A stretch of 64,000 bases of DNA, taken from the NCBI RefSeq assembly GCF_030384885.1, contig NZ_CP128613.1. One strand, written 5' to 3'. Positions within the stretch are counted from its first letter, which is position 1. Each line of letters opens with the position of its first letter. Origin of the DNA: Escherichia coli (lineage in GTDB: Bacteria > Pseudomonadota > Gammaproteobacteria > Enterobacterales > Enterobacteriaceae). Positions 18,001 through 19,242 of this stretch are shown piece after piece. A program made the position numbers.

Positions 18001-19242
18001 CCTGCCACTGATGAAGAAAAACGCCTGCTGGGAATTACCGATGTGCGTACCGTCACGCTGTACCATCCGCAGGGCTGCCCCGCCTGTAATCACAAAGGTT
18101 TTCGCGGGCGTACTGCCATCCATGAGCTGATCGTGGTAGACGCCACATTGCGTGATTTGATTCACCGTCAGGCCGGGGAACTGGAGCTGGAACGTTATGT
18201 CCGGCAACACTCTGCGGGTATCCGCAGCAACGGCATTGAGAAAGTGCTTGCCGGAGAAACCTCTCTCGATGAAGTGCTGCGGGTAACGATGGAGGCGTAA
18301 TGGCACTGTTTTACTATCAGGCGTTACAGCGTAATGGTCGCAAAACCAAAGGCATGATTGAGGCGGATTCCGCGCGTCATGCCCGCCAGTTGTTGCGCGG
18401 TAAAGAGCTTATCCCCGTACACATTGAAGCCCGGATGAATGCTTCGTCAGGGGGAATGTTGCAGCGTCGGCGACACGCACATCGTCGTGTGGCGGCGGCA
18501 GATCTGGCGCTGTTCACTCGCCAACTGGCAACGCTGGTGCAGGCAGCAATGCCGCTGGAAACCTGCTTACAGGCGGTCAGTGAGCAAAGTGAAAAACTGC
18601 ATGTAAAAAGCCTCGGAATGGCGCTACGCAGCCGGATTCAGGAAGGTTACACCCTGTCGGACAGCCTGCGCGAACATCCCCGCGTCTTTGACTCCCTGTT
18701 TTGTTCGATGGTGGCTGCCGGAGAAAAATCCGGGCATCTCGACGTGGTGCTCAATCGCCTGGCGGATTACACCGAACAGCGACAGCGCCTGAAATCACGC
18801 CTGCTGCAGGCCATGCTCTATCCGCTGGTACTGCTGGTGGTGGCAACGGGCGTGGTCACTATTTTGCTGACGGCGGTGGTGCCGAAAATTATCGAACAGT
18901 TTGATCATCTCGGACACGCGCTGCCTGCCTCCACCCGCGCTCTTATCGCTATGAGCGACGCGTTGCAGACCAGCGGCGTTTACTGGCTGACCGGTGCCAT
19001 GTATCACGGGCCTGTGCATCCATTAAGGAAAGCATCCCTGAACGTTGCATCAGGTCACGCCAGATTTCGCGATCGAGATTGCGTGTGATGGCTTTCATTG
19101 CGGTTTCCGGTTTCTCCATCAGCCAGCAGCCGCAGCGAAAATCCTGTTTCATGGCCCAGTCCGGGGCGGCTTTACCGCCAATACTTTCTGTCATTGCTGA
19201 TATTTCAGCCAGTTGCCGGATAAGTGTGTCGTGTAGTGGTCA

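What the first reader, a model, noticed from the sequence alone, without database searches (positions are those of the whole stretch)
18990..19231. About 240-bp orphan segment between the gspF breakpoint and the IS end
GspF-like coding sequence degenerates near 18990, yet the IS inverted repeat does not begin until 19232. The intervening DNA carries a minus-strand ORF start (MTESIGGKAAPDWAMKQDFRCGCWLMEKPETAMKAITRNLDREIW...) that I cannot place in any family; it may be a remnant of whatever originally flanked the IS before the deletion.
Basis: seen in the sequence. Interest (0 to 1): 0.35.

Follow-up and report, generated by a model that had tools for sequence, protein, structure and literature searches.

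The report
Leftover fragment of a deleted island gene
The 240-bp "orphan" is a dead internal piece of a gene of unknown function (DUF4942 family), the last gene of a genomic island that once sat at the pheV tRNA gene; an insertion sequence cut one end and a 22-kb deletion cut the other, so it is an ordinary genomic scar.

Summary
GspF homology stops at 18989, the IS3-family element begins at 19232, and the DNA between them belongs to neither.

That DNA (18988-19231, minus strand) is codons 39-119 of a 280-codon DUF4942 (PF13708) gene. It is 100% identical to E. coli 2013C-4282 and 99.6% to the PAI V copy of strain 536. In relatives this gene is the terminal gene of the pheV island, 111 bp from attR.

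Two events made the fragment:
- **IS-associated collapse.** An ISEc31-like IS (19232-20489, no target duplication) replaced the island from codon 38 to 33 bp upstream of the integrase start. Among 5,426 complete E. coli genomes only 2013C-4282 shares these junctions.
- **22-kb deletion.** A 22,152-bp deletion at a 2-nt (TG) microhomology joined DUF4942 codon 119 to gspF nt 690. It removed gspF 3'-gspM, the kps capsule cluster, an IS110 remnant, attR and the DUF4942 3' part. No complete genome has this junction, but independent draft and SRA assemblies do, so it is real.

The fragment has no function, and interest is low.

The parts
18300..18989 (+). gspF', the 5' 690 nt (codons 1-230 of 407) of the T2SS-beta inner-membrane protein gene. 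The open frame then reads through 32 unrelated codons to a stop at 19088.
18988..18989 (.). Deletion junction gspF | DUF4942. The 2-nt microhomology TG is shared by both parental sequences, and 6 of 8 positions match if the comparison is extended to 18995.
   Evidence: the junction is absent from 5,426 complete E. coli genomes and present in independent assemblies
18988..19231 (-). Internal fragment (codons 39-119 of 280) of a DUF4942 (PF13708) gene, the terminal gene of the pheV genomic island. It is cut at the 5' side by the IS and at the 3' side by the 22-kb deletion.
18949..19194 (-). It is a by-product of the junction, not a gene.
   Evidence: this exact sequence is not in the 15-billion-protein collection; no promoter-like site
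19232..20489 (-). IS3-family insertion sequence, 1,258 bp, 94% identical to ISEc31. It has 26-nt terminal inverted repeats (TGTAGTGG...CCACTACA) and a transposase CDS at 19240-20417 with a programmed frameshift. The flanks GTCG|IS|AAAT show no target-site duplication.
20490..20654 (.). Island-proximal remnant: the integrase-pheV intergenic DNA (attL side). In intact islands the integrase ATG lies 33 bp beyond the point where the IS now begins.
20655..20730 (-). tRNA-Phe (pheV), the island attachment site.

Best explanation
The segment is a non-functional, doubly truncated fragment of a DUF4942-family gene. That gene is the last gene, next to attR, of a P4-integrase-type genomic island inserted at pheV (PAI V-like). 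The history has three steps. Step 1 is inferred from relatives: an ancestor carried the order gsp(T2SS-beta) - kps capsule cluster - attR - DUF4942 ... island ... int - pheV. Step 2 is shown by shared junctions: an ISEc31-like IS3-family element ended up joined on one side to DUF4942 codon 38/39 and on the other to a point 33 bp upstream of the integrase start, with no target duplication. The whole island interior was therefore lost, either by IS-mediated adjacent deletion or by recombination between two IS copies. Step 3 is shown by three-way alignment: a 22,152-bp deletion by illegitimate recombination at a 2-nt microhomology (TG) fused DUF4942 codon 119 to gspF nt 690. This removed gspF 3'-gspM, the kps cluster, an IS110 remnant, attR and the DUF4942 3' part. 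What remains does nothing. It keeps only about 33 of the 190 positions of the DUF4942 domain and has lost its start codon and promoter.
For: - **Identity of the fragment.** Window 18988-28500 is 100% identical to E. coli 2013C-4282, which has the order gspF...gspM-kps-IS110'-DUF4942'-IS3-pheV. Residues 39-119 of the strain 536 DUF4942 protein align 80/81. The Pfam DUF4942 hit scores 30.9 bits against a cut-off of 25, on profile positions 1-36 only, whereas the intact protein scores 225 bits on positions 1-189.
- **End of gspF homology.** It ends at 18989.
- **Three-way junction alignment.** It shows the TG overlap and 22,152 bp missing.
- **Position in the island.** A 17-nt copy of the pheV 3' part lies 111 bp past the DUF4942 stop in strains 536, 2013C-4282 and O55:H7 RM12579. 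In O55:H7, DUF4942 lies next to gspM, separated only by 280 bp of intergenic DNA that holds that repeat. So it is the terminal island gene.
- **Right flank of the IS.** Window 20490-20654 is the integrase-pheV intergenic DNA of intact islands.
- **No target duplication.** The IS flanks differ.
- **Distribution of junctions.** The IS junctions occur only in 2013C-4282. The gspF|DUF4942 junction occurs in 0 of 5,426 complete genomes. The exact chimeric 262-aa GspF' product is found on 9-11 NCBI/Logan contigs, three of which are 99.98-100% identical across the junction.
- **Published order.** The order T2SS - kps - PAI V - pheV, with a P4-like integrase and direct repeats, is described in PMC10272209.
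Against: No intermediate genome was found that carries the IS at only one of its two junctions. The route of step 2 (adjacent deletion versus IS-IS recombination) is therefore not resolved. The gsp remnant 15590-18989 is only 96.6-98.3% identical to 2013C-4282 although both flanks are 99.99-100%. The window is therefore not simply '2013C-4282 minus 22 kb'; an additional recombination event in one of the two lineages must be assumed. Lack of function of the fragment is inferred from its anatomy, not measured.
Confidence: 0.93

Rival explanations
1. The segment is a diverged or frameshifted continuation of gspF, or of another gsp gene such as the gspM 3' end.
For: The plus-strand frame stays open from gspF to 19088. 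Some gspF alleles align up to 18995.
Against: Nucleotide and protein homology to intact gspF stops at 18989 / residue 230-232. The segment is 100% identical to DUF4942 genes on the opposite strand. The extension to 18995 is 6/8 chance similarity at the junction.
Confidence: 0.01
2. The segment belongs to the insertion sequence, as an extended end or passenger DNA.
For: It is contiguous with the IS, and in 2013C-4282 the two are also contiguous.
Against: Copies of the IS at 99.9-100% identity in other genomes, in unrelated contexts, cover exactly 1-1258 and end at the inverted repeats. The segment occurs in about 3,700 genomes inside DUF4942 genes, without the junction to this IS seen here.
Confidence: 0.01
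3. The 81-aa minus-strand ORF (or the 262-aa GspF' fusion) is a new, expressed small gene, transcribed by read-through from the IS transposase, which points the same way.
For: The ORF is open and co-oriented with the transposase, and lies 38 bp beyond the IS end.
Against: Its ATG is internal Met51 of the parent protein, it keeps only the first ~33 of 190 domain positions, and its last 12 residues come from antisense gspF. No promoter-like site was found, and by reading the sequence there is no clear Shine-Dalgarno motif before the ATG. The exact peptide is absent from the 15-billion-protein collection, meaning gene callers did not call it on the contigs that carry the junction. In 2013C-4282, PGAP annotates the longer DUF4942 remnant from which this fragment derives as a pseudogene.
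Confidence: 0.03
4. The junction is an assembly chimera.
For: The junction is absent from all 5,426 complete E. coli genomes.
Against: Three independent SRA-run assemblies (SRR16760859, SRR14995614, SRR12517544) and NCBI contigs carry the identical junction. Their contigs end 30 nt into the IS, as expected for short-read assemblies of a repeated IS.
Confidence: 0.01

Closest known systems
DUF4942 gene at the distal end of pheV islands (for example WP_001280500.1 in PAI V of UPEC strain 536)
   Same: 99.6% nucleotide and 80/81 amino-acid identity over codons 39-119. Same orientation relative to pheV. Same neighbourhood on the gsp side in relatives (attR, IS110 remnant, kps).
   Different: Only 29% of the gene is left. 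The start codon, promoter, most of the Pfam domain, the stop and the adjacent attR are gone.
The pheV locus of E. coli 2013C-4282 (NZ_CP027579.1)
   Same: The IS, both IS junctions, the int-pheV intergenic remnant and the flanking chromosome are identical: 100% over 18988-28500 and 99.99% over 3149-15592.
   Different: That strain still has the DUF4942 3' part, attR, the IS110 remnant, the kps capsule cluster and a complete T2SS-beta operon. Its gspC-gspF alleles differ by 1.7-3.4% from the window's remnant.
Partial T2SS-beta (gsp / yghD-yghJ) operon of E. coli K-12 next to pheV (from general knowledge, not tested here)
   Same: The same operon next to pheV has decayed by internal deletion.
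   Different: The end points differ. K-12 keeps gspM (yghD) next to pheV and carries no island remnant.

Membership tests
DUF4942 (Pfam PF13708) | Match to the family HMM above the gathering score | tested here: met
   30.9 bits against a cut-off of 25, E = 2.6e-7, but only profile positions 1-36 of 190
DUF4942 (Pfam PF13708) | Near-identity to annotated full-length members | tested here: met
   80/81 identical to residues 39-119 of the 280-aa protein of strain 536; the DNA matches DUF4942 genes in 3,724 genomes
DUF4942 (Pfam PF13708) | Complete domain and intact reading frame (a functional member) | tested here: not met
   Codons 1-38 and 120-280 are missing, so this is a pseudogene fragment
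GspF / T2SSF (PF00482) | GspF homology within 18990-19231 | tested here: not met
   Homology ends at 18989 / residue 230
IS3-family insertion sequence (the neighbour 19232-20489) | Terminal inverted repeats ending TG...CA, an orfA (HTH) plus orfB (DDE rve) transposase with a frameshift | tested here: met
IS3-family insertion sequence (the neighbour 19232-20489) | 3-4-bp target-site duplication of a simple insertion | tested here: not met
   The flanks are GTCG and AAAT. This indicates a deletion or IS-IS recombination rather than a simple insertion.
pheV-associated P4-integrase genomic island (PAI V type) | Island DNA directly 3' of tRNA-Phe (attL side) | tested here: met
   20490-20654 equals the int-pheV intergenic DNA of intact islands
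pheV-associated P4-integrase genomic island (PAI V type) | Integrase gene and distal direct repeat (attR) | tested here: not met
   There is no integrase. The 22-nt pheV 3' end occurs only once in the window. The 17-nt attR core seen in relatives lies in the deleted DNA. What remains is a remnant, not an island.

The most novel reading that the evidence does not exclude
The 3.4-kb gsp remnant (15590-18989) might not be what in-situ deletions left behind. It could be a patchwork of foreign gsp fragments joined to the resident chromosome by illegitimate (microhomology) recombination. The allele switch from about 100% to 96.6-98.3% identity with 2013C-4282 falls exactly at the outer junctions (15590-15592 and 18988-18989), and the two pieces have different closest relatives. 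Under that reading, the junction at 18988/18989 would be an integration point of imported DNA.
Probability: 0.05. Interest if true: 0.35.

Novelty: already known. Interest (0 to 1): 0.07.

Why it matters
It matters little beyond annotation. The fragment should be labelled a DUF4942 pseudogene remnant, and the locus described as a collapsed pheV island plus loss of the kps capsule cluster and most of the T2SS-beta operon. The three junctions (IS left, IS right, gspF|DUF4942) are clone-specific markers. They place this strain next to E. coli 2013C-4282 and record the order of events: island collapse first, capsule and T2SS loss later.

Tried and rejected
- **RNA and signals.** An Rfam scan of 18700-20800 at E <= 1 found nothing in the segment, only isrC inside the IS and the tRNA. 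The promoter/terminator scan of 18800-19400 found no promoter-like site and one terminator-like hairpin, at chance level.
- **Intermediate genomes.** I looked for genomes carrying only one of the two IS junctions, to decide between adjacent deletion and IS-IS recombination. None exist among 5,426 complete genomes.
- **The other two gsp deletion junctions.** None of the complete genomes has them.
- **The 22-nt pheV direct repeat.** A search allowing <= 2 mismatches failed in relatives. A short-word BLAST then found a 17-nt core.
- **NCBIfam scan.** One call failed on a wrong reading frame and was not repeated, because Pfam and direct comparison were sufficient.
- **Literature.** The four papers that mention DUF4942 give no function.
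- **Searches not run.** I did not use the large protein, structure or metagenome searches; 100% DNA identity to annotated genes made them unnecessary.

Full report
**Observation.** The window around the finding reads as the first-stage reader described.
- A GspF-type ORF starts at 18300 (PF00482, E = 1.7e-35).
- An IS3-family element has 26-nt inverted repeats at 19232-19257 and 20464-20489.
- Between them lies a minus-strand ORF, 19194->18949, beginning MTESIGGK.
- Alignment with an intact gspF (strain RMDEC465, 99.9% over the 690 nt 18300-18989) shows homology ending at 18989, which is codon 230 of 407.

GspF homology does not continue to the IS.

**What the segment is.** Window 18990-19231 matches annotated "DUF4942 domain-containing protein" genes in 3,724 of 5,426 complete E. 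coli genomes. The best hit is 100% (strain 2013C-4282), and the PAI V copy of strain 536 is 99.6%.
- The ORF hits Pfam PF13708 (DUF4942) at 30.9 bits against a cut-off of 25, but only on profile positions 1-36 of 190. The intact 280-aa protein of strain 536 hits positions 1-189 at 225 bits.
- Translated from the IS boundary, the segment aligns 80/81 with residues 39-119 of that protein.
The last 12 residues of the 81-aa ORF are antisense gspF.
- The fragment (18988-19231, 244 nt) has lost codons 1-38 to the IS and codons 120-280 to a deletion.

**Where the gene normally sits.** In strain 536 the order is Ag43 - DUF905 - DUF932 - antirestriction - RadC - DUF987 - YeeU antitoxin - CbtA toxin - DUF5983 - DUF957 - DUF4942 - IS110 fragment - kpsF.... 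In O55:H7 RM12579, DUF4942 lies next to gspM (yghD), separated only by 280 bp of intergenic DNA.
- A 17-nt copy of the pheV 3' part (window 20661-20677) lies 111 bp past the DUF4942 stop in strains 536, 2013C-4282 and RM12579. DUF4942 is therefore the terminal gene of the pheV island, next to attR.
- The published order T2SS - kps - PAI V - pheV, with a P4-like integrase beside pheV and direct repeats at the ends, agrees with this (PMC10272209).

**The IS side.** The IS is 1,258 bp (19232-20489). It is 94% identical to ISEc31, and 99.9-100% identical copies sit in unrelated contexts in other genomes.
- Its right flank, 20490-20654, is the integrase-pheV intergenic DNA of intact islands. In strain MSB1_7C the integrase ATG lies 33 bp beyond the point where the IS begins here.
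- Homology with an island-free strain resumes only at 20646, 9 bp from pheV.
- The flanks, GTCG|IS|AAAT, are not a target duplication.
- So the IS marks the loss of the whole island interior, from the integrase to DUF4942 codon 38. Whether that happened by adjacent deletion or by recombination between two IS copies cannot be decided here.
- Among 5,426 complete genomes only 2013C-4282 has either IS junction, and it has both.

**The gspF side.** In 2013C-4282 the locus reads glc - sslE - pppA - gspS - gspC...gspM - kpsM/T ... kpsF - IS110' - DUF4942' - IS3 - pheV - yqgA - speC.
- The window is 100% identical to that strain over 18988-28500 and 99.99% over 3149-15592.
- A three-way alignment puts the junction at a shared TG (18988-18989). 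Relative to that strain 22,152 bp are missing: gspF 3', gspG-M, the whole kps cluster, the IS110 remnant, attR and the DUF4942 3' part. A 2-nt overlap points to illegitimate (microhomology) recombination.
- The junction is in none of the complete genomes.
- The exact 262-aa chimeric GspF' product is on 9-11 NCBI/Logan contigs. Three of these, from separate SRA runs, are 99.98-100% identical to the window across the junction and end 30 nt into the IS. The junction is therefore real and clonal, not an assembly artefact.

**Function.** None is expected.
- The fragment has no start codon and no promoter of its own, and keeps only about 33 of 190 domain positions.
- In 2013C-4282, PGAP annotates the longer DUF4942 remnant from which this fragment derives as a pseudogene.
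- There is no promoter-like site and no Rfam match in the segment.
- The 81-aa peptide is absent from the 15-billion-protein collection.
- Read-through from the co-oriented transposase could transcribe it, but nothing suggests a product with a role.

**Surroundings.** The remaining gsp DNA carries two more microhomology deletions.
- One runs from sslE nt ~1011 to the gspC 3' part at 15590-15592 (AAG; 5,849 bp missing).
- The other lies inside gspD at 16471-16479 (1,144 bp missing).
- Neither junction is in any complete genome.
- The remnant 15590-18989 is only 96.6-98.3% identical to 2013C-4282, although the flanks are essentially identical.
- The simplest reading is a homologous-recombination tract in one of the two lineages, with ends in DNA that the window has since lost.
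- A less likely reading, that foreign fragments were inserted by illegitimate recombination, is not excluded. It is given as the novel case.

**Verdict.** This is an ordinary genomic scar of a known gene family in a well-known island locus. The family (DUF4942), the exact break points and the order of events are now defined. Interest is low.

Noticed in passing
window 15590-18989 versus flanks 3149-15592 and 18988-28500: The gspC'-gspD'-gspE-gspF' remnant is 96.6-98.3% identical to E. coli 2013C-4282, while both flanks are 99.99-100% identical. The allele switch falls exactly at the deletion junctions. This is probably a recombination tract whose ends lay in the deleted DNA. The gspF part is closest to RMDEC465 (99.9%), whereas the gspC/D part is closest to other strains (99.1%).
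   Followed up: partly
window 15590-15592 and 16471-16479: There are two further microhomology deletions in the T2SS-beta operon. One runs from sslE nt ~1011 to the gspC 3' part (AAG; 5,849 bp missing). The other is inside gspD (6-9 nt overlap; 1,144 bp missing). Neither junction occurs in 5,426 complete E. coli genomes.
   Followed up: partly
window 20299-20421 (-): Rfam isrC (RF01387, Hfq-binding sRNA) matches at 145 bits, full length, inside the 5' end of the IS3-family orfA. Here the Rfam family corresponds to part of a transposase gene.
   Followed up: no
L009 (E. coli O55:H7 RM12579) 3357-4570; O111 genomes: Related ISEc31-type elements sit just upstream of the same DUF4942 gene in other lineages. 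In O55:H7 the element lies about 104 bp further upstream, in the same orientation. These look like independent IS insertions near the 5' end of this gene.
   Followed up: partly
L003 5386-5402, L005 44372-44388, L009 2388-2404: A 17-nt direct repeat of the pheV 3' part (CCGGACTCGGAATCGAA) lies 111 bp past the DUF4942 stop in three strains. This is the attR of the pheV island. It is shorter than the 22-nt repeat cited in PMC10272209.
   Followed up: partly
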